Position numbers and translations under genes: made by a program
IMG/VR virus record: IMGVR_UViG_3300034161_000008
Coordinates: 64,001-128,000 of that record
Length of the DNA stretch: 64,000 bases
Reading direction: 5' to 3' (one strand)
From: a virus
Lineage: Duplodnaviria; Caudoviricetes
Shown here: one piece after another, positions 13,587 to 22,007 of the stretch
Position numbering within the stretch: the first letter of the stretch is position 1
Layout of the letters: each line of letters opens with the position of its first letter
Notes under the pieces: generated by a model
Seen by the model: the letters and a program-made list of their open reading frames with translations, nothing else
What the model was told of the DNA's origin: nothing
Databases searched by the model: none

Positions 13587-14339
13587 ATGAGTCACGTTGA
13601 AGACACTATCACTAAGCTGGAATCGCTGCGCCGCATCGCCGGTGCTTTGCATAACGACATCGAAGGCCTGCTGGAAGACCTGAAAGTCTCCTCGGCACCT
13701 GCGCTGATCGACACGCCGCTGGTACACACCCACGCCCCTGCTGTAGATCTTCCGTACGTTCAAGACCCGGTCAACCCAACTGGCCAAGTCCGCGATGCTT
13801 TCCATTCGGCGAAACCACCAGTCGACGATCCGAAACGCACCCTGCAACCAGTTCGCCGCGAAGCCGTCATCCATCAAGCCGGTCGTCAACCACAACCGCT
13901 GGGCGATGCAGTTGAAGAACTGCTCAGCGCCGTTGAAGCCAATGCTGCCAGCCAGCGCGGTCCAAAGTCTCCGGGTGAAGTGCTAACTCAGTACATGTCG
14001 CCTGCAATCCTGACCGGCGGCCGTGGTTTCGTACAGCCCGGTGCCAGTGGTCTGAAACGTTATCGCGAAACGCTGCTGAACAACGATGACCTCAAACCCG
14101 ACGAACTGGTAACCTACCCTGACGGTTTCTACTCCGCCGACCCACAAGGTCAAGACGAGTTCTTCATCAAGACCCCGAACTTCATGGTTCTGGTCCACGG
14201 CCTGCGTAGCACTCCTGGTCTGCTAGTGTTCCTGCGCAGCAGCATGGGTGAAGCGGTTGATCAGGGTTCTCTGTCCCTGGGCGAGCGTCTGCAACTGTCG
14301 CAAGAGCTGGACGTCGTTCTGTCATCCCTGCCGGAATAA
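13587..14339 (+). CDS. Hypothetical protein with Pro-rich linker
   Basis: RBS AGGAG before the ATG; N-terminal helix, Pro-rich middle and globular C-terminus. Confidence 0.75.
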   Translation: MSHVEDTITKLESLRRIAGALHNDIEGLLEDLKVSSAPALIDTPLVHTHAPAVDLPYVQDPVNPTGQVRDAFHSAKPPVDDPKRTLQPVRREAVIHQAGRQPQPLGDAVEELLSAVEANAASQRGPKSPGEVLTQYMSPAILTGGRGFVQPGASGLKRYRETLLNNDDLKPDELVTYPDGFYSADPQGQDEFFIKTPNFMVLVHGLRSTPGLLVFLRSSMGEAVDQGSLSLGERLQLSQELDVVLSSLPE

Positions 14340-14380: not shown

Positions 14381-15613
14381 TCAAACGTCTTTGCAGATCT
14401 TCATGAAGAAGGCTGGCGAGATTTCGTCTGGCCGGTACGGGTAGCGGCTGTTGTCGATGTTGCGCTGAGCCATTGCGTCTACAGTTTGGAAGTTGTAGTT
14501 CGGGATCAGCGATTCCTGAATGTGAACAGACCACTGGGTGTCTTCGTAGACGTACCAGTATTCAGAGATCTTACCGAAGCCCACCCGCAACGGCCAAATA
14601 GGAGGCACGTGTGAAACGTACATCCCCGGCAACTGAGCGTTCTCAAGCTTGGACAGCTCAACGTACAGATCGTTGGTATCCACCACCACAAAGAAGCTCT
14701 GTGGTAGGGTGGCGTATGCCTCGATGAAAGCATCGGACTTCAGATCAGCAACCGAGAGTTCAAACTTGTTGCGCTCATTCTTCTCGTATGGCAGCGAGGA
14801 GAAGTCCAGAAACGGTTCCGACTCGTAGAAGCGCTTAGCCATCGGATAGTTCTGGAAGTCGATGCAATACTGGTGATCGCCCACTCGGTAGTAGGTGTTG
14901 TCCAGTACGTGCAGATAACCACCCAACACCAACAGCATCGTGCGATCACCAATGTCTTTGCCGATGTCGATGTACGTCTGTTGCGAGTACAGTCCGTCCG
15001 GCGACTGTTTATAGAGCATTTCCTTGGTGATAGGAATCAGCTCCAGTTCACCGACTTCACGGAAACTGTGGACGCCCACTTGAGCTTCCAAAGACTTCTG
15101 GCGAGAGACATCACCTTTCATTACACGAATGCCTTTGTAAGCTTTGTCCGTGACGTGAAAGAAGCCGTTGACCGAAACCAGACAGTTCTTAACGAACAGA
15201 TCAACATCCAGTCCGGACTTGGTCAGATACAACGAAGTCTTGGCACCCGGTGGCAGTTCCGTGTCCGGCGCGAACAGGTCGTGGATCGGCGCTACGGTGT
15301 AACCTGCGTGGAATGCATCGGCGTAACGAACGAACGTCGTGTCGATCTTTGGGATCGTGTCAGACGTCGGTAAAGTGAGGTTGCCGTTGGTGACCAGCCA
15401 GTCGGAAAACGTTACATCCAGAGTGCCCACTTTATCCCGAATGTCGGCAAAATCCAAAGACACTGGAGCGTCCAGAAAACTGTTGGTTAGAACAGCGAAG
15501 ACTTTGGAATAAAGAGAGTAAATTTGGATGAAGGTAAGTGCCGAAAGATCAAGGTCTTGCCACCGGGTCTCCCCGTCGATTGGTTTGGCGATTGCGGAGA
15601 CAAGCTGGTACAT
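14381..15613 (-). CDS. Virion structural protein (size and position like phiKZ gp130)
   Basis: 410 aa, divergent from the tail-fibre genes; NCLVSVNGFFH-type beta motifs typical of phiKZ-like baseplate proteins. Confidence 0.6.
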   Translation of the reverse strand: MYQLVSAIAKPIDGETRWQDLDLSALTFIQIYSLYSKVFAVLTNSFLDAPVSLDFADIRDKVGTLDVTFSDWLVTNGNLTLPTSDTIPKIDTTFVRYADAFHAGYTVAPIHDLFAPDTELPPGAKTSLYLTKSGLDVDLFVKNCLVSVNGFFHVTDKAYKGIRVMKGDVSRQKSLEAQVGVHSFREVGELELIPITKEMLYKQSPDGLYSQQTYIDIGKDIGDRTMLLVLGGYLHVLDNTYYRVGDHQYCIDFQNYPMAKRFYESEPFLDFSSLPYEKNERNKFELSVADLKSDAFIEAYATLPQSFFVVVDTNDLYVELSKLENAQLPGMYVSHVPPIWPLRVGFGKISEYWYVYEDTQWSVHIQESLIPNYNFQTVDAMAQRNIDNSRYPYRPDEISPAFFMKICKDV

Positions 15614-15688
15614 GGGCCTTCCCTATATGCTATGGTCGGTAGGAATTTATCGCGGAGTCTATACCATTACAGCCTAGGAGCCATCACA

Positions 15689-17860
15689 ATGGCAGTCACT
15701 GATCTCGTAACTCCGTACCCGTTTGATCCCACGGGTGCGCTGTTGTCAAACCTCGTAACGAGTGAGCAACAGATCGTAACACCCCCCAATTTCCGGGATT
15801 TTTACTTCCTGATTCCTAAAGCAGCTCCGTACTTCGGTGACAGCCTTGTAATCACGCTCAAAGACCTGGAGAACCAATCACGCACACTTAAGGAAGGGGT
15901 GGATTACTACCCGACTCACCGATTCATTTCGGCTTCCCGCGCGACAGCCAAACCGATCTACGGATCGATTACTCTTTTGGACAAAGAGCTGTCTGGCGTA
16001 GTTACGCTCAAGTACCAAACGATTGGTGGTATTTGGACTATCGACGAGCAAACTGCCGCCGAAGTTCTGGCCAACACTCTGCTCAACCCACGGATCACTT
16101 CGTGGGAAGTTGTTGTCGACCAACCGATTGCATTCCCTCCTATCGATCATGAGTGGGATCTGGTCGATATGGTGGGTGCAACTGAGATGGTTGAAGCAAT
16201 CGACCGTATCACTGCTGCACTGAACGAATCCGGCGGCAATGCCATCACGCAACACATTGCTGACCTCCAAAACCCGCATAAGACCACAGCCACGCAAGTA
16301 GGCCTCGGTAACGTGCAGAACTACGCGATCGCTACCGACCCAGAAGCGACGGCTGGACTGCGCAACGACGTTTACATGACTGCCCTGCGAGTGAAATCTG
16401 CAATCTCGTTCCAGGCTGGTGCTTTGCTCAAGAACCACACTGATGACCACGCGAACCCTCACGTCGTCACCAAGCAACAAGTGGGCTTGGGCGTTGTAGA
16501 CAACTTCGCCACAGCGACCAACACGGAAACTGTAGCAGGTGCTTTGTCGAACCGCTTTACCACTCCGGCTGGCGTTAAGGCTGCGATTGATAACTTCTCC
16601 ACTACGACCTTTGCGTCGCACGTCAACAACAAGCTGAACCCACACGAAGTGGATAAGCTGCAAGTTGGCTTGGCTTTGGTTGAGAACTTTGCACCTGCCG
16701 GTATCAACGATGCCCAAGCCGGTACTCGTAACGACATGTACATGACGCCGCTCCGTGTGCGTCAGGCTATCCAGGCTTTGGCCGGTGGCGACATCGACGT
16801 TCACATTACCGACATGAACAACCCTCACCAGACCACCAAGGCTCAGGTTGGGTTGGGTAGCGTGCAGAACTTTGGTGTGGCGGATTCGCCTACTACCATT
16901 GCCGGTACTTCGGTTAGCCTTTATACCACCCCGAAAGGCGTGGTTGACGCGATCAAGTCTCTGGTGGCCAACGACTACTTCGAGCACAGCATCAACACTG
17001 CAAACCCTCACCAAGTGACGGCTGAGCAAGTAGGTGCGTACACGAAGGCAGCAATCAACACGCTGCTGTCTGGTTATTTGCCCGTTAACGGCAAAGCAGT
17101 AGACAGTCACCTGTTCGATGGCTTGACTACCGATCAGGTTGCTCAGTACGTGTTGCTGGGTAAAGCTGCCAACTCGACGCTCTTCGACGGTCGTGACGTT
17201 GATACCTACAAGGCTTACGTCTTGCAAGGCAAGTCTGCGGACTCGACGTTGTTTGCTGGTCAAACGCTTCAGCAAGTAATTGCTGCTGCCGCTGCCGGTA
17301 GTGACTTCGAACCGTACACCGCTGCTCAGCGCATGCACAGTCTTGCTGCTCTGGTGGGTGCTGAAGCATTCAACTGGACTCCAATTGGCCAAGTTAACTT
17401 CTCGGACAACGTGGACGCAGTAGCTGGCAACCCAGACACCCAGTGGTTTATTGCTGGCGCCGACGACATCGCAGATTTGGCTTCCACCCTTTATTACGTA
17501 CGTTGTTCTGTACGTAACGCAGGTACTGGGGCAGCGCGTCTTTCGGTACAAGTTCTGAACATGGCTGGCGTATCGACTGGCGCTCAATTTGGCTGGACGT
17601 ACGACGCTACTGCCAAAACAGCAACTGTTTATCTGAAGACGGCTAAACGTCGTAACCAGATGACCGTGACTGAGCTGAACAAGGGTGTCGGTGCTGTAAT
17701 TGGTGCTGACAACGTTCTGGTCGTAGAACCTACCGGGATTACTTACGTCGTTGAAGACGGTCTGGCAACCACCAGTCAAATGGCTGCAATGGAAGCTCAG
17801 ATGGCCGATGCGGTCAAAGCGATCTCGCAAGCGTTCACGGGCATGGTGCCAGATGCCTAA
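15689..17860 (+). CDS. Tail fibre protein 1 with NPH repeats (phiKZ gp145/146-like)
   Basis: RBS AGGAG then MAVTDLVTPYPFDPTG; 4 full and 1 partial ~60-aa H..D..NPH..T..QVGLG.V.N repeats; three ~23-aa GKA.DS.LFDG repeats. Confidence 0.8.
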   Translation: MAVTDLVTPYPFDPTGALLSNLVTSEQQIVTPPNFRDFYFLIPKAAPYFGDSLVITLKDLENQSRTLKEGVDYYPTHRFISASRATAKPIYGSITLLDKELSGVVTLKYQTIGGIWTIDEQTAAEVLANTLLNPRITSWEVVVDQPIAFPPIDHEWDLVDMVGATEMVEAIDRITAALNESGGNAITQHIADLQNPHKTTATQVGLGNVQNYAIATDPEATAGLRNDVYMTALRVKSAISFQAGALLKNHTDDHANPHVVTKQQVGLGVVDNFATATNTETVAGALSNRFTTPAGVKAAIDNFSTTTFASHVNNKLNPHEVDKLQVGLALVENFAPAGINDAQAGTRNDMYMTPLRVRQAIQALAGGDIDVHITDMNNPHQTTKAQVGLGSVQNFGVADSPTTIAGTSVSLYTTPKGVVDAIKSLVANDYFEHSINTANPHQVTAEQVGAYTKAAINTLLSGYLPVNGKAVDSHLFDGLTTDQVAQYVLLGKAANSTLFDGRDVDTYKAYVLQGKSADSTLFAGQTLQQVIAAAAAGSDFEPYTAAQRMHSLAALVGAEAFNWTPIGQVNFSDNVDAVAGNPDTQWFIAGADDIADLASTLYYVRCSVRNAGTGAARLSVQVLNMAGVSTGAQFGWTYDATAKTATVYLKTAKRRNQMTVTELNKGVGAVIGADNVLVVEPTGITYVVEDGLATTSQMAAMEAQMADAVKAISQAFTGMVPDA

Positions 17861-17895
17861 CGGCGAGTAAACCAATTCAAAGAAGGGCATCAAGA

Positions 17896-19338
17896 ATGAC
17901 ACCGCTCATCCTTAAGTATCCCCTCGACCTCACGGGCGTCAATCCGAACAACCTGGTCTTGGGTGAGCAACACGATCTCACGCGCCGCAAAGTGCGTGCT
18001 GTCGCAACGAACTATGGGCCCTTTTATACACAGGGGCTAAAGGTTTATGACGCAGCCACCGGGAAGCTTTTGATTCCGGGTACACCTGAGGAAGGTGGTC
18101 AGTACGTTGCGGCTGAACTTTACGAGGAAGCCACTCGTCGTTCGGCAAAAGAAGTCTGTGCAATCATCGTGATTACTGACCAGACGGTTGGTGATTCTAT
18201 CAAACTCGACTACCAAGTCGTGGGTGGTGAGTTCAGTAGCTCCGTGTCTGTCATTGCACAGATGATCGAAGCGCTGAGTCTGGATGATCGACCAATCAAG
18301 TGGGGCGACATTCTGGGTAAACCAGATGCCTTCCCACCTGCTAAGCACTTGCACGACATCGGCGACATCTACGGCTTCGAGTATCTGGTCGATGCTCTGG
18401 AACGTGTGCGTAACGCAATCCTCATGGGTGACGTTGCTTCGCACGATGAGATCTACCGTTACATCGACCACTACGTCGATGACCTGACTGCACAAATCAA
18501 TGCGCAGGCTGGTGCACTGAACGACCACAAGAACGACCACGGTAACCCGCACGTCGTGACAAAAGCCCAAGTTGGTTTGGGTTCGGTCGACAACTTTGCT
18601 ACGGCGACTCAGACTCAGGCCGAACAGGGTACGTTGAACAACCTGTTCATGACTCCGCTGCGTACGTATCAGGCGATTCAGTTTGTGGCCGGTAAGGCAC
18701 TGACTGCTCACTTGGAAGACTTCAACAACCCACACCAAACCACCAAAGCGCAGGTAGGTCTGAGTAACGTTGATAACTTCGCGACAGCTTCTGAAGCAGA
18801 AGCCCGCCAAGGTACTTCCTCGACGCGTTTCATGACTCCGCTGAACGTGGCTCAAGCTATTGCCACTCAAGCGTCCGGTCCACTGAACGCTCACTTGGCA
18901 GATCACAACAACCCTCACGTTGTAACCAAGGCTCAAGTTGGCCTCGGTTCGGTTGATAACTTCGCCACCGCCACTGCTCAACAAGCGGCTGCCGGTACGT
19001 CGACTTCCAACTTCGTGACGCCTGCCGGTGTGAAGGCTTTCGCTGACGCGCAAATCTGGCCGACGCTGAACGCACACATCAACAACCAGTCCAACCCGCA
19101 CAACACGACTGCTGCTCAAGTCGGGGCATACACCCAACAGCAAACCAACGACCTGCTGGCTCAACGCCTGCCAATCGGTGGTACTGCGGTGAACTCCAAC
19201 GCGCTGGGTGGCTACGACATCAACACCGTACTGGCTCTGGCTTATAACCAGATCGGGACCATGGGCAAGCGCAACCTCTACGTATCTCCGGCCGATCCGT
19301 CCGGCGGTGCCAACGGCGACGTTTGGTTCAAGTATTAA
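17896..19338 (+). CDS. Tail fibre protein 2 with NPH repeats
   Basis: Paralogous N-terminus (KYPLDLTGVNPNN); 3 full and 1 partial NPH repeats; fibre-tip C-terminus PSGGANGDVWFKY. Confidence 0.8.
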   Translation: MTPLILKYPLDLTGVNPNNLVLGEQHDLTRRKVRAVATNYGPFYTQGLKVYDAATGKLLIPGTPEEGGQYVAAELYEEATRRSAKEVCAIIVITDQTVGDSIKLDYQVVGGEFSSSVSVIAQMIEALSLDDRPIKWGDILGKPDAFPPAKHLHDIGDIYGFEYLVDALERVRNAILMGDVASHDEIYRYIDHYVDDLTAQINAQAGALNDHKNDHGNPHVVTKAQVGLGSVDNFATATQTQAEQGTLNNLFMTPLRTYQAIQFVAGKALTAHLEDFNNPHQTTKAQVGLSNVDNFATASEAEARQGTSSTRFMTPLNVAQAIATQASGPLNAHLADHNNPHVVTKAQVGLGSVDNFATATAQQAAAGTSTSNFVTPAGVKAFADAQIWPTLNAHINNQSNPHNTTAAQVGAYTQQQTNDLLAQRLPIGGTAVNSNALGGYDINTVLALAYNQIGTMGKRNLYVSPADPSGGANGDVWFKY

Positions 19339-19351
19339 TAGGAGGTGAGTA

Positions 19352-20161
19352 ATGTCAATCTCCTATAACACCGGTGGTGGCTACCTCAAGATCAAGCAAC
19401 CGTGGATCAACATCAACGGTGGCTGGTATCCTGCCAAGAAAGTCTCGTACAATCTTGGTGGGACTTGGAAAGAAGTGTGGCCAATGCAGCGTGTTTACAC
19501 TTGGGTTGGGACAGGGTACGGACTGAACATCCAAGCCCTGTTTGGCTATCCAACTGAACCTGCCCAGTTCATCTTCATCAACAACGGCGTGATCGGTGGT
19601 TCTGGCAAAGACTTTGCTTTGATCACCGGTACATTCCCAGCCGGTTCCACGCTGACGATCATCAACAACGGCTATATCCAGGGTATGGGTGGTGAAGGTG
19701 CGAGCTACTTGGGTCGCAACATTTACAACAACGCAGGTGTAGGCGGCAACGCTCTGTACCTGCAATACCCAACCGACCTCCAGAACAACGGCTACATCTG
19801 GGGTGGCGGTGGTGGCGGTGGTGCTGGTTCTGAAGTGGGTGGTTCCAACGACAACTCGGCTCCGGGTGGCGGTGGTGCTGGTGTTCCTGGTGGTGTAACT
19901 AACCTCTCGCCTTGGCGTCCGGGTTACTACTACGCAGCTACCCCCGGTACACAAACGGCGGGTGGTGTTAACCCATCGTGGGGTGGTAACGGCGTGGGTG
20001 GTGGTCCTGGCCTGGCTGGCGGGAACTGGTTCGTCGCCATTGGTTCGAGTGCGATTTACATGTCCGCTGGTGCAGGGCCAGGTAAGTCGATTATCAATAC
20101 CGGTTATCTGACGTCCATCACTGGCAACAACAGTAACCAAGTCAGAGGTCCAATGACATGA
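19352..20161 (+). CDS. Glycine-rich tail-fibre adhesin, T-even gp38-like
   Basis: Trp-rich N-terminus followed by ordered Gly motifs GMGGEG, GGNAL, NNGYIWGGGGGGG, PGGGGAG, GGGPGLAGG and AGPG; RBS AGGAGG. Confidence 0.75.
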   Translation: MSISYNTGGGYLKIKQPWININGGWYPAKKVSYNLGGTWKEVWPMQRVYTWVGTGYGLNIQALFGYPTEPAQFIFINNGVIGGSGKDFALITGTFPAGSTLTIINNGYIQGMGGEGASYLGRNIYNNAGVGGNALYLQYPTDLQNNGYIWGGGGGGGAGSEVGGSNDNSAPGGGGAGVPGGVTNLSPWRPGYYYAATPGTQTAGGVNPSWGGNGVGGGPGLAGGNWFVAIGSSAIYMSAGAGPGKSIINTGYLTSITGNNSNQVRGPMT

Positions 20162-20853
20162 CAGAAAACCAAACTGCTGGGTTGTTCCTTGTGGGCAACC
20201 TGGTACTCGGTGACAAAACCATCCAGCAGGCTTTCTGCCGGATCATCGAGGCTACTCTGTGCAGTGCGCAGTCTCCCCAAACGGCACGATTGCTCACTTA
20301 CAAGGTGGGCGTTTGGGATCATGAACCTGCTCCAGCTGAAAAGCCTCAGGTCTACGCCTGCGGTGCTTCTAAACAAAGCACATTCAGCTTGCGTGTGGGT
20401 TTGGACTTGGTCCTCGATTTGGAGACCGTGCAGTCCAACGCGATCAAGCATTTCCTGACATTGGTGGTGATGGGTAAGCCTATCCGAACCACTGAGGATT
20501 CGATGGTGCAACTCTACAGCGCTAACCAAGCGCCGTGGACTCACGCTACCGAAGACTTGGGCATGACGTTCTCTCTGAGCGACGTCCAGCATCATGTCAA
20601 CTACCGGGCAGTAGACGGTGAGGCTTTGGGCTTGCTGTACAGCCAGACGTCTTACAAGGCCGTTGTGCTGAACAACAGAGTAGTCAAGGACATCAACTGG
20701 GGCCGTATCGATTGGGCTGCGATTCCTCGCATCACTTTCGCCAGTGAGTTCACTGATCCAACCACCATGGTGTCGGAAGCAGCTGCAAACTTCCAGACCC
20801 CTGGAGTCCAGTCTGCTTTCCTCGCCAGTATTCGAAAGCAACAGGCAGGTTAA
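20158..20853 (+). CDS. Hypothetical protein in tail/lysis operon
   Basis: ATGA overlap with the adhesin gene. Confidence 0.75.
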   Translation: MTENQTAGLFLVGNLVLGDKTIQQAFCRIIEATLCSAQSPQTARLLTYKVGVWDHEPAPAEKPQVYACGASKQSTFSLRVGLDLVLDLETVQSNAIKHFLTLVVMGKPIRTTEDSMVQLYSANQAPWTHATEDLGMTFSLSDVQHHVNYRAVDGEALGLLYSQTSYKAVVLNNRVVKDINWGRIDWAAIPRITFASEFTDPTTMVSEAAANFQTPGVQSAFLASIRKQQAG

Positions 20854-20856
20854 CAA

Positions 20857-21399
20857 ATGGATTTCACTCCTTCGCTCCTTCGTAAGCAAGACATCCCCGA
20901 GGCAGGTTATTCTCTCTATGCGTGGCCTTGTGTGCGCGCTTCTGAGTACCTTGGGGAAGATTGCTGGCAAACCATCAAGGCTTTGAAGTTCGGCGTCCCT
21001 GAGGGCGTTGGCAACGAAGACTATAAAGACGTTACCATCACGGTTCCAGCTGGGTACATTGTGCTGCGTCAAAAGCTGCCATGGACTCTGCGATGGCTGG
21101 CTCCGATTTGGGGGCGGCATCAAACTGCCTCGATTCTCTATCAGTTCATGAGTGAGCAGTCGACGGCAATGGTTGGTGGCAAGCTGCATCGTTGGACTCG
21201 GCGTGAAGTCCATTACTCTGTACTGGGTACGATCGGCAACGACATTCGTATCCCGGTTTGGAAACGACTGGTAATGACTGCGCACTTTGCGTGGTTGGCA
21301 CGCAAGCGTTACTACGACGCTGCGCCCACGGAAACCCGTCTGTTCTTTGAAATCGAAATGGAACAGAACCGAGCCCAAAAAAAGGCGGTGAGTAAATGA
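20857..21399 (+). CDS. DUF1353-like protein
   Basis: ITVPAGY...P..L.W..PIWG.H.TAS.LY pattern resembles DUF1353 (ITVP.GF.TD.AS.P...P.G....AA..HD.LY). Confidence 0.6.
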   Translation: MDFTPSLLRKQDIPEAGYSLYAWPCVRASEYLGEDCWQTIKALKFGVPEGVGNEDYKDVTITVPAGYIVLRQKLPWTLRWLAPIWGRHQTASILYQFMSEQSTAMVGGKLHRWTRREVHYSVLGTIGNDIRIPVWKRLVMTAHFAWLARKRYYDAAPTETRLFFEIEMEQNRAQKKAVSK

Positions 21400-22007
21400 T
21401 CGAGTTAACCGATACACGCGACCAGATGATCACCCGCATCGCTGGCGTGGAAGCGGGCTACGTGAACAACCCGAACGACAAAGGCGGTGAAACCAATCAC
21501 GGTATCACCAAAGCGGTCGCTCTGGAAAACTCTGCTGACTTGCAAAAGCTGTTCCAGTGGGACGGCACCATGAAGAATCTGTCCTCGGCGGCAGCTTTGT
21601 GGATCTACAAGCAGAAATACTGGGACAAGATGATGCTGGATGCGATCTATCAAATCTCGCCTTCGTGCGCAGACAAGATGCTCGACATCGGTATCAACTC
21701 CGGTACTGCTGCGTCCGTTACGATCTTGCAGAAGTTCCTTTCTGCTTTGAACGTGCAGGCGACCCTGTACCCTGATCTGGCGCTGGATGGCGGGATGGGC
21801 ACCAAGACTATTGGTGCACTGAACACGTTGATTGCCAAGCGCGGTCAGAAAGAAGTGGTTCAACGCCTGGCCATGACTTTGATGTCGTACCAAGTGGTGA
21901 ATGCGATCGAGATCTCCAACGGCCGTGCCGCAAACGAAACGTTCACCTGGGGTTGGTTGAACCGTCAGTGGGATGGTGTGATTCGTTACATCGGTCTGAC
22001 CAAGTAA
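21396..22007 (+). CDS. Endolysin: GH108 N-acetylmuramidase with peptidoglycan-binding domain
   Basis: EAGYVNNPNDKGGETNHGIT, IYKQKYW, DIGINSG, LDGGMGTKTIGAL and FTWGWLNR. Confidence 0.92.
   Translation: MIELTDTRDQMITRIAGVEAGYVNNPNDKGGETNHGITKAVALENSADLQKLFQWDGTMKNLSSAAALWIYKQKYWDKMMLDAIYQISPSCADKMLDIGINSGTAASVTILQKFLSALNVQATLYPDLALDGGMGTKTIGALNTLIAKRGQKEVVQRLAMTLMSYQVVNAIEISNGRAANETFTWGWLNRQWDGVIRYIGLTK

What the first reader, a model, noticed from the sequence alone, without database searches (positions are those of the whole stretch)
19352..20161. T-even gp38-like polyglycine adhesin at the end of a jumbo-phage tail-fibre operon
The order of motifs (YTWVG..YGLN; FPAGSTLTIINNGYIQGMGG; GGNAL; NNGYIWGGGGGGG; GGGGAG; ATPGT..AGG; GGGPGLAGG; AGPG...GP) parallels the beta-helix plus polyglycine-II sandwich of T2/S16-type gp38 adhesins, whose inter-glycine loops determine receptor choice. 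Here it has a different Trp-rich N-terminal cap (WININGGW...GGTWKEVWP) and follows a fibre ending in GDVWFKY. This suggests a receptor-binding module shared between T-even-type phages and this jumbo phage, and the likely host-range determinant.
Basis: partly seen in the sequence, partly recalled or inferred. Interest (0 to 1): 0.68.

Follow-up and report, generated by a model that had tools for sequence, protein, structure and literature searches.

The report
gp38-type adhesin capping a jumbo-phage fibre
This gene of an uncultured phiKZ-like jumbo phage encodes a distant relative of the T2/S16 gp38 tail-fibre tip adhesin. Its docking domain differs from gp38's and is predicted to clip the single protein onto the three-chain end of the fibre encoded just upstream. 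The protein is therefore the likely receptor binder of this phage.

Summary
It has a strong ribosome-binding site and dN/dS of 0.14 against a 96% relative.

Pairwise sequence searches miss gp38. A family profile aligns to S16 gp38 (hhalign 95.9%, E 5e-9). A confident AlphaFold model (pLDDT 92.7) superposes on S16 gp38 (6F45_D) at Z 21.8, rmsd 2.4 A over 198 residues; the next fold scores Z 5.3. Conserved glycine motifs alternate with variable, indel-rich segments, as in gp38.

The N-terminal 44 residues differ from gp38. Instead of a three-helix bundle they form three roughly 14-residue beta repeats (G-x-W). A 3:1 complex prediction places these repeats on the three GDVWFKY ends of the upstream fibre (score 0.77, best control 0.01).

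The same pairing of fibre tip and triple repeat occurs in cultured phages of three other families. Six cultured phiKZ-like relatives lack the adhesin.

The fold family is very large (4,148 cluster representatives), so this is a new variant of a known kind. Virion location and receptor are untested.

The parts
15689..17860 (+). Fibre 1 (723 aa from ATG 15689; the mechanical ORF starts at TTG 15524). It has a baseplate-docking N-domain, NPH..TKAQVGLG..NF repeats and its own globular C-terminal domain, with no GDxWF tip.
   Evidence: PHROG phrog_2163/13857 matches begin at residue 57-65 of the TTG ORF. Orthologues of 723 aa occur in L005 and L022.
17896..19338 (+). Fibre 2 (480 aa), the presumed trimeric carrier of the adhesin. 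It has no Peptidase_S74 chaperone domain.
   Evidence: PHROG tail/virion structural families at E 4.5e-151. No S74 in Pfam. The gene lies directly upstream of the adhesin in all related contigs.
19282..19335 (+). Fibre-2 docking tip, residues 463-480 (..SPADPSGGANGDVWFKY). S464, G471, G474, D475 and W477 are invariant in 19 fibre tips.
   Evidence: Alignment A3. All three fibre copies contact the adhesin through residues 463 and 467-480 in the predicted complex.
19340..19345 (+). Shine-Dalgarno AGGAGG, six bases before the adhesin start codon.
   Evidence: Sequence read directly.
19352..19483 (+). Adhesin N-terminal docking domain, residues 1-44. It consists of three roughly 14-residue beta pseudo-repeats (ISYNTGGGY / ININGGWY / VSYNLGGTW..EVWP).
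   Evidence: Self-similarity peaks at offset 14-15 in 25 family members. Interface residues 1-43 are contacted by the W477 of each of the three fibre copies at residues 4, 17-20/25 and 32. The model is all-beta here. Matches of about 41 aa to many phage proteins appear in BFVD.
19484..19678 (+). Adhesin beta-helix domain, first rungs (residues 45-109, including FPAGSTLTIINNGYI).
   Evidence: AF2 strands at pLDDT 94-98. This is the most conserved part of the family (entropy 1.07 bits). It aligns to the S16 gp38 beta-helix.
19679..20083 (+). Glycine-rich (PGII sandwich) region, residues 110-244, interrupted by one beta-helix rung (136-150). Conserved glycine motifs alternate with variable loops at 117-128, 158-170, 178-202, 206-213 and 225-239.
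   Evidence: 38% Gly in residues 151-232. There is no DSSP secondary structure at pLDDT >=95. GRM entropy is 0.90 against 1.79 bits between GRMs, and the indels fall in the loops. The region superposes on the 6F45_D PGII domain.
20084..20161 (+). Adhesin C-terminal strands that close the beta-helix (residues 245-269), plus the stop codon.
   Evidence: Model strands 253-257. hhalign aligns residues up to 259 with S16 gp38 residue 243.
20158..20853 (+). Translationally coupled 231-aa ORF of unknown function. Its position is conserved in relatives. It is possibly an assembly factor.
   Evidence: ATGA overlap. Orthologues in L005 and L022, and weak ones in L003/L004. No family or fold was obtained.
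20857..21399 (+). DUF1353 protein, weakly similar to a tail assembly chaperone PHROG.
   Evidence: PF07087 at 23.3 bits against a cut-off of 22.5. phrog_1158 at E 5.7e-5.

Best explanation
The gene encodes a monomeric tail-fibre tip adhesin that is a remote homologue of the T2/S16-type gp38. Its core is a short right-handed beta-helix. Two long glycine-rich excursions from this helix pack into a polyglycine-II sandwich, and the variable loops between the glycine motifs form the receptor-binding face. Its N-terminal 44 residues are not the three-helix, three-tryptophan bundle of S16 gp38. They form three tandem beta repeats of about 14 residues each, and each repeat pairs with the GDVWFKY C-terminus of one chain of the trimeric fibre 2 encoded 13 bases upstream. 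A single adhesin thus caps a three-fold symmetric fibre at 1:3. Shown here: the gene, the homology, the predicted fold, the GRM/loop conservation pattern, the conserved gene pairing and the purifying selection. Predicted in silico only: the docking interface. Inferred: presence in the virion, receptor binding and a role in host range.
For: Fold: the AF2 model has pLDDT 92.7. Foldseek against the PDB finds only PP01 gp38 (E 2.5e-9) and S16 gp38 (E 1.2e-6) as significant. VIA-align gives 6F45_D at Z 21.8, rmsd 2.4 A, 198 aligned residues (model 30-269 against chain 29-249); the next fold is Z 5.3.

Homology: hhalign of A1 against S16 gp38 gives 95.9%, E 5e-9. 24 of 37 family members hit Pfam GP38 (PF05268) at E<=0.01, best 6.8e-13, and no other family is hit. 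phrog_2056 'tail fiber; host specificity' scores 3.7e-7.

Architecture: GRM columns have 0.90 bits of entropy against 1.79 bits for inter-GRM columns (p 6e-7), and the indels lie in the loops.

Context: the gene follows a fibre ending GD[VI]WF by 12-13 nt in six related jumbo contigs.

Docking: the prediction of three fibre tips plus one adhesin scored 0.77, with the best of 3 controls at 0.01. That mark was reached by 58 of 80 solved complexes and 2 of 110 mismatched pairs. The runs agree in >=96% of contacts and the partner's pLDDT is >=93. The interface is fibre residues 463 and 467-480 of all three copies against adhesin residues 1-43.

Independent comparative support: in cultured RL38J1 (Pootjesviridae), RHEph22 (Schitoviridae) and JSF10 (Demerecviridae), a fibre ending GDVWF / GDIYF / GDVFF is followed at once by a protein that starts with three G-x-W repeats.

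Selection: dN/dS is 0.136.
Against: P0001 itself scores only 10 bits (E 0.75) on PF05268, against a cut-off of 25. phmmer and BLASTP against gp38 find nothing. Homology therefore rests on profiles and on a predicted structure. The complex score is the model's own confidence. It was obtained with my own alignments and with 3+1 chains, unlike the calibration set. A gp37-gp38 complex is solved, so some memory effect cannot be excluded, although the attachment domain here is different. There are no virion proteomics, binding data or known host. Six cultured phiKZ-like relatives lack the gene, so no experimental system exists within the same clade.
Confidence: 0.75

Rival explanations
1. The protein is an assembly chaperone for the fibre, the role gp38 plays in T4 itself. 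It is not kept in the virion and does not touch the receptor.
For: The name gp38 covers both roles in T-even phages (PMC6851490). Fibre 2 lacks an intramolecular S74 chaperone and so may need help to fold.
Against: T4 gp38 is unrelated in sequence to the T2/S16 adhesin type (PMC6851490). This protein matches the adhesin type only. The pattern of variable loops between conserved glycine motifs is that of a receptor-binding surface. Other candidate helpers lie downstream (the 231-aa ORF and DUF1353).
Confidence: 0.07
2. The protein is a gp38-type adhesin but sits elsewhere on the particle, on fibre 1 or the baseplate, and not on the tip of fibre 2.
For: Only fibre 2 was tested in the complex prediction. 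Both fibres share N-terminal domains and repeats.
Against: Fibre 1 ends in its own globular domain without the GDxWF motif. The GDxWF tip and the triple-repeat N-terminus occur as adjacent genes in 10 of 10 loci examined across four phage families. The controls in the complex prediction scored 0.01.
Confidence: 0.08
3. The protein is a passive structural cap that closes the fibre end, and receptor binding is done by another protein such as fibre 1.
For: No binding data exist. Related cultured phages without the adhesin end fibre 2 in a similar G-x-W-x-x-V-W-P unit, which shows that a cap-like element can suffice.
Against: A 225-residue beta-helix plus PGII domain with fast-evolving, indel-rich loops is excessive for a cap. 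All characterised members of the fold bind receptors (PMC12032242; PMC12892980).
Confidence: 0.07

Closest known systems
Salmonella phage S16 gp38 and E. coli phage PP01/T2 gp38 adhesins (PDB 6F45 chain D, 9V85; Pfam PF05268)
   Same: Both have the beta-helix plus three-layer polyglycine-II sandwich (Z 21.8, rmsd 2.4 A over 198 residues). Both have glycine-rich motifs alternating with variable segments. Both genes lie directly after the distal fibre gene. Both are single chains predicted to cap a trimer.
   Different: Identity is about 21% and there is no pairwise BLAST or phmmer hit. The N-terminal attachment domain is three beta repeats, not three helices with apical Trp (PMC6851490; model). 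The partner fibre has no Peptidase_S74 domain and ends in GDVWFKY, whereas S16 gp37 carries S74 at residues 638-698. The host phage is a phiKZ-like jumbo phage, not a member of Straboviridae.
Rhizobium phage RL38J1 gp078 (Pootjesviridae) and RHEph22 gp087 (Schitoviridae), both annotated as hypothetical proteins
   Same: Both have the same triple G-x-W N-terminal domain and beta-helix start (hhalign 98.8%, E 1e-16 for gp078). Both genes lie directly after a fibre ending GDVWF or GDIYF.
   Different: They are longer (341-349 aa) and their Gly-rich C-terminal parts differ. They do not reach PF05268 at E<=0.01. They belong to other phage families and morphotypes.
Myocyanophage Pam3 gp24 simplified tail fibre (PMC9608196)
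   Same: It has a glycine-rich lattice with a variable distal tip that is proposed to bind the receptor.
   Different: In Pam3 the glycine-rich domain grows from a TNF-like domain. It is part of the trimeric fibre chain itself and forms a four-layer lattice of 12 GRMs. It did not appear among the significant matches of the model.
Glycine-rich tail adhesins of haloarchaeal Hafunaviridae (PMC8651126)
   Same: They are gp38-like glycine-rich adhesins found outside Straboviridae. They track host range and sit in a hypervariable fibre locus.
   Different: They belong to archaeal viruses. No sequence or structure comparison was made here.

Membership tests
T2/S16-type gp38 adhesin (Pfam PF05268 GP38) | Sequence match to the PF05268 model above its gathering score (25 bits) | tested here: not met
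   P0001 scores 10 bits, E 0.75. However, 24 of 37 relatives match at E<=0.01. P0037 (E 3e-12 to P0001) scores 38.9 bits. hhalign to S16 gp38 gives 95.9%, E 5e-9. It is therefore a remote homologue outside the curated model's reach.
T2/S16-type gp38 adhesin (Pfam PF05268 GP38) | Central beta-helix with two excursions forming a polyglycine-II sandwich | tested here: met
   This was tested on a predicted model (pLDDT 92.7). 6F45_D gives Z 21.8, rmsd 2.4 A, 198 of 248 residues, and 9V85_A gives Z 22.1; the next fold is Z 5.3.
T2/S16-type gp38 adhesin (Pfam PF05268 GP38) | Conserved glycine-rich motifs alternating with hypervariable segments | tested here: met
   Entropy is 0.90 bits in GRM columns against 1.79 bits between them (closest 18 sequences; p 6e-7). 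Indels of 5-19 residues fall only between GRMs. The GRM borders were set by eye on the reference sequence.
T2/S16-type gp38 adhesin (Pfam PF05268 GP38) | Gene immediately downstream of the distal tail-fibre gene | tested here: met
   There is a 13-nt gap after fibre 2. The arrangement is the same in L001-L005 and L022. S16 has gp37 then gp38.
T2/S16-type gp38 adhesin (Pfam PF05268 GP38) | N-terminal three-helix attachment domain with three apical tryptophans | tested here: not met
   Residues 1-56 of the model are all beta strands. They form three 14-residue repeats. The S16 domain is described as helices alpha1-alpha3 (PMC6851490).
T2/S16-type gp38 adhesin (Pfam PF05268 GP38) | One monomer caps the end of a trimeric fibre | tested here: inconclusive
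   The test was in silico only. The score was 0.77 with the best control at 0.01; the mark was reached by 58 of 80 solved complexes and 2 of 110 mismatched pairs; all three fibre copies touch residues 1-43. This supports binding but does not show it.
T2/S16-type gp38 adhesin (Pfam PF05268 GP38) | Partner fibre carries a C-terminal Peptidase_S74 intramolecular chaperone (as in S16 gp37) | tested here: not met
   Fibre 2 has no S74 hit. S16 gp37 has PF13884 at residues 638-698.
T2/S16-type gp38 adhesin (Pfam PF05268 GP38) | Present in virions and binds a host outer-membrane receptor | not testable with these tools
   The phage is uncultured and its host is unknown.
T4-type gp38 (fibre assembly chaperone) | Sequence or fold similarity to T4 gp38 | not tested
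   No T4 gp38 comparison was run. The protein matches the adhesin type. According to PMC6851490, T4 gp38 is very different in sequence from S16 gp38.

The most novel reading that the evidence does not exclude
The N-terminal triple G-x-W repeat is a general, mobile trimer-to-monomer adaptor. It consists of three tandem copies, in one chain, of the unit (G-x-W-x-x-V-W-P) that closes the trimeric fibre in adhesin-less relatives such as RSL2 and pPa_SNUABM_DT01. By imitating a three-chain layer it docks any monomeric binding domain onto fibres ending in GD[VI][WYF]F. The matching of tip motif to adaptor would then be a cross-family docking code, seen here in jumbo, Pootjes-, Schito- and Demerec-type phages. 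Such a code would predict which tip protein belongs to which fibre.
Probability: 0.35. Interest if true: 0.65.

Novelty: new variant of a known kind. Interest (0 to 1): 0.5.

Why it matters
Receptor-binding proteins of phiKZ-like jumbo phages are poorly defined. This result names a concrete candidate for one uncultured clade and identifies the fibre that carries it. It also shows that the gp38 beta-helix/PGII binding module reaches far beyond T-even phages and travels with interchangeable docking domains. The pairing of the GDxWF fibre tip with the triple-repeat adaptor is seen in four phage families. If confirmed, it would give annotators a simple rule for linking orphan 'hypothetical' tip proteins to their fibres. 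It would also give structural biologists a second solution to the problem of attaching a monomer to a trimer.

Tried and rejected
Direct sequence searches did not reach gp38:
- phmmer of P0001 against the PDB gave only a chance hit at E 0.42.
- BLASTP against S16 gp38 gave nothing.
- hmmsearch of profile A1 against PDB sequences gave 9V85 only at E 1.2.
- PF05268 on the window's own genome gave no hit.

tblastn against cultured phages covered only the N-terminal half, because the Gly-rich part is filtered out.

No gp38-like gene was found with the A1 profile in pPa_SNUABM_DT01, PhiEaH1, RSL2, FLC9, Xoo-sp14 or LucasX, nor with PF05268 in four of these. The A1 six-frame search also missed S16 gp38, so its negatives exclude close relatives only. 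The PF05268 positive control worked (1.9e-74).

The downstream 231-aa ORF stayed unexplained. It has no Pfam or PHROG hit, the Atlas model has pLDDT 0.30, only two close homologues were found, and AF2 on six sequences gave pLDDT 45. No conclusion is drawn about it.

The promoter and terminator scan found nothing above shuffled expectation. Megablast of window 30-50 kb against cultured phages gave no match.

In read laying, gaps in contig cover and the short repeat-derived joints inside fibre 2 were not interpreted.

The rival 'antisense ORF 19355-20140 is the gene' was rejected (see the observation check).

Literature searches found no description of the GDxWF tip / triple-repeat pairing. The library is partial, so this does not prove novelty.

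Full report
**Observation**

The window is bases 64001-128000 of a complete 218,436-bp virus record with direct terminal repeats. The upstream ORF 17896-19338 (480 aa) ends in GDVWFKY. AGGAGG lies six bases before the ATG. The stop overlaps the next gene's ATG as ATGA.

Against a 96%-identical relative on a 219-kb contig, the gene has dN/dS of 0.136. Its dN (0.031) is two to three times that of the two fibres (0.010-0.014). The gene is therefore real and under purifying selection. It is not the last gene of the operon. A coupled 231-aa ORF, a DUF1353 protein and a GH108 endolysin follow it.

**What phage this is**

The block SbcC, small protein, 410-aa virion protein (minus strand), fibre 1, fibre 2 is syntenic with phiKZ-like jumbo phages, including pPa_SNUABM_DT01, RSL2 (Chimalliviridae), FLC9 and Xoo-sp14. 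The best protein identity for the conserved 410-aa protein is only 42%. There is no near nucleotide match among cultured phages. Near-identical DNA occurs in peat, wastewater, biofilm and wetland metagenomes. A 72.9-kb wastewater contig spans fibre 2, the adhesin and the next gene collinearly.

**Homology and fold**

Pairwise methods fail:
- Pfam GP38 scores 10 bits.
- phmmer against the PDB finds nothing.
- BLASTP against S16 gp38 finds nothing.

Family-level evidence is clear:
- 57 word-indexed homologues all carry a precomputed PF05268 tag.
- 24 of 37 aligned members hit PF05268 at E<=0.01, and no other family is hit.
- One member (P0037) scores 38.9 bits, above the 25-bit cut-off.
- hhalign of the family profile against S16 gp38 (taken from NC_020416) gives 95.9% probability, E 5e-9, over query 100-259 against target 105-243.

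AlphaFold2 with this alignment gives pLDDT 92.7. Foldseek against the PDB returns only PP01 gp38 (E 2.5e-9) and S16 gp38 (E 1.2e-6) as significant. VIA-align gives Z 22.1 and Z 21.8 for these, the latter at rmsd 2.4 A over 198 residues (model 30-269 against chain 29-249). The next fold scores Z 5.3.

Residues 171-233 have pLDDT >=95 but no DSSP secondary structure and are 38% glycine. This is as expected for PGII helices.

**GRM/loop architecture**

Across the family, the glycine motifs (110-116, 129-135, 150-157, 171-177, 203-205, 214-224, 240-244) are conserved, at 0.90 bits of entropy. The segments between them vary, at 1.79 bits (p 6e-7). These segments also hold all the larger indels, of 5-19 residues. 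This is the GRM/HVS design described for gp38 (PMC12032242; PMC6851490).

**The attachment domain is different**

S16 gp38 docks through three helices whose apical tryptophans enter three equivalent pockets of the gp37 trimer (PMC6851490). Here residues 1-56 are modelled as beta strands. In 25 family members the first 46 residues show a self-similarity peak at an offset of 14-15 residues. The mean BLOSUM score there is -0.05 to -0.25, against -0.98 for every other offset and for shuffles. This indicates three repeats of the form x-phi-x-phi-x-x-G-x-W.

I predicted a complex of three copies of the last 86 residues of fibre 2 (19-row alignment A3) with the whole adhesin (A1). The score was 0.77, with the best of 3 controls at 0.01. 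That mark was reached by 58 of 80 solved complexes and 2 of 110 mismatched pairs. The runs agree in >=96% of contacts and the partner's pLDDT is >=93.

The interface is fibre residues 463 and 467-480 of all three chains against adhesin residues 1-43. W477 of chains 1, 2 and 3 touches adhesin residues 4, 17-20/25 and 32, which is one repeat per chain. This supports binding but does not show it. A gp37-gp38 complex is in the PDB, but it has a different attachment domain, so recall from memory is less likely though not excluded.

**Comparative support for the docking pair**

In the fibre-tip alignment, S464, G471, G474, D475 and W477 are invariant. The tip and the triple repeat are adjacent genes in several settings:
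- five related jumbo contigs and a distant 343-kb contig;
- cultured Rhizobium phage RL38J1 (Pootjesviridae: ..GDVWFQTEV, then gp078);
- cultured Rhizobium phage RHEph22 (Schitoviridae: ..GDIYFQYDA, then gp087);
- cultured Vibrio phage JSF10 (Demerecviridae..GDVFFVI, then gp073 and gp074).

RL38J1 gp078 aligns to the family profile over the repeats plus the beta-helix (98.8%, E 1e-16). JSF10 gp073 shares only the repeats (93.8%, E 1.8e-7) and has a different C-terminal domain. BFVD matches of about 41 residues to many phage proteins point the same way.

Family members with another N-terminus (three ISLSD-like repeats) follow an S74-ended fibre in a T7-like contig. S16 gp37 likewise has S74. 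Adaptor type therefore tracks fibre-tip type.

Cultured phiKZ-like relatives without the adhesin end fibre 2 in G-x-W-x-x-V-W-P, which is the same unit that ends the adhesin's third repeat. This suggests, without proving, that the adaptor imitates a three-chain fibre layer.

**Distribution and novelty**

A profile search of 1.84 billion representatives finds 4,148 hits at E<=1e-3 and 2,034 at E<=1e-10. They include stand-alone forms of 250-300 aa and fused or tandem forms. Some are fused to DUF285/LRR or EGF domains.

gp38-like adhesins outside Straboviridae have been noted before, in haloarchaeal viruses (PMC8651126) and in a Klebsiella phage lineage (bioRxiv 10.64898/2026.05.12.724579). The kind is therefore known.

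What appears new is its presence in a phiKZ-like lineage, given that six cultured relatives lack it, and the beta-repeat adaptor with its GDxWF partner. I found no description of the latter, but the library is partial.

**Verdict**

The protein is best read as a gp38-type tip adhesin with a variant docking domain. Homology and fold are secure. Tip attachment is well supported in silico and by comparative evidence. Receptor binding and host-range control are inferred from the family.

Noticed in passing
window 15524-17860: The mechanical ORF of fibre 1 starts at TTG 15524 and overlaps the minus-strand 410-aa gene. Family matches begin at residue 57-65 and orthologues are 723 aa, so the true start is probably ATG 15689.
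   Followed up: partly
window 13587-14339: This 250-aa ORF lies between SbcC and the 410-aa virion protein. It occupies the position of the gene annotated 'putative central spike protein (Mu gp45-like)' in pPa_SNUABM_DT01 and of a gene next to a PAAR-motif gene in L002. It had no Pfam or PHROG hit here.
   Followed up: partly
P0062, P0063, P0112, P0104, P0191, P0142: The gp38-like beta-helix/PGII domain also occurs in tandem copies within proteins of 849-1204 aa. It is also fused to DUF285/BspA-type LRR, EGF/cEGF and thrombospondin-type domains. The binding module is therefore reused well beyond fibre-tip adhesins.
   Followed up: partly
RSL2 NC_028950 63555-64106 (ORF060) and 85284-85973 (ORF082); FLC9 LC667451 near 187016-187141: Small hypothetical proteins of cultured phiKZ-like phages carry the triple G-x-W N-terminal module without a detectable gp38 domain, and they are not next to fibre genes. 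They may be alternative tip or accessory proteins.
   Followed up: no
L025 (Vibrio phage JSF10) 3367-4345: Two consecutive small genes follow the GDVFFVI-ended tail fibre: gp073 (201 aa) and gp074 (120 aa). Both start with the triple repeat. gp074 stops after the first beta-helix rungs and looks like a truncated adhesin.
   Followed up: partly
window 19508-19516: Wastewater variants carry a compensating -1/+1 indel pair 8 bases apart inside the adhesin gene. It recodes residues 52-54 (VGT to TGL, as in P0002) without breaking the frame.
   Followed up: partly
window 21396-22007: The GH108/PG_binding_3 endolysin is the most diverged gene of the block against the 96% relative (aa identity 90.7%, dN/dS 0.31). 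Its neighbours are 98-99% identical.
   Followed up: no
window 20158-20853: This 231-aa ORF is translationally coupled to the adhesin. It evolves fast (16-40% identity to the positional counterparts in related contigs) and has no recognisable family or confident fold.
   Followed up: yes
window 15689-19338: Both fibres contain four to five copies of a unit of about 45 residues, NPH-x-x-T-K-A-Q-V-G-L-G-x-V-x-N-F..A..G....(Y/F)(M/T)TP. This unit causes the short repeat-derived joints and depth spikes seen when metagenome contigs are laid on the region.
   Followed up: no
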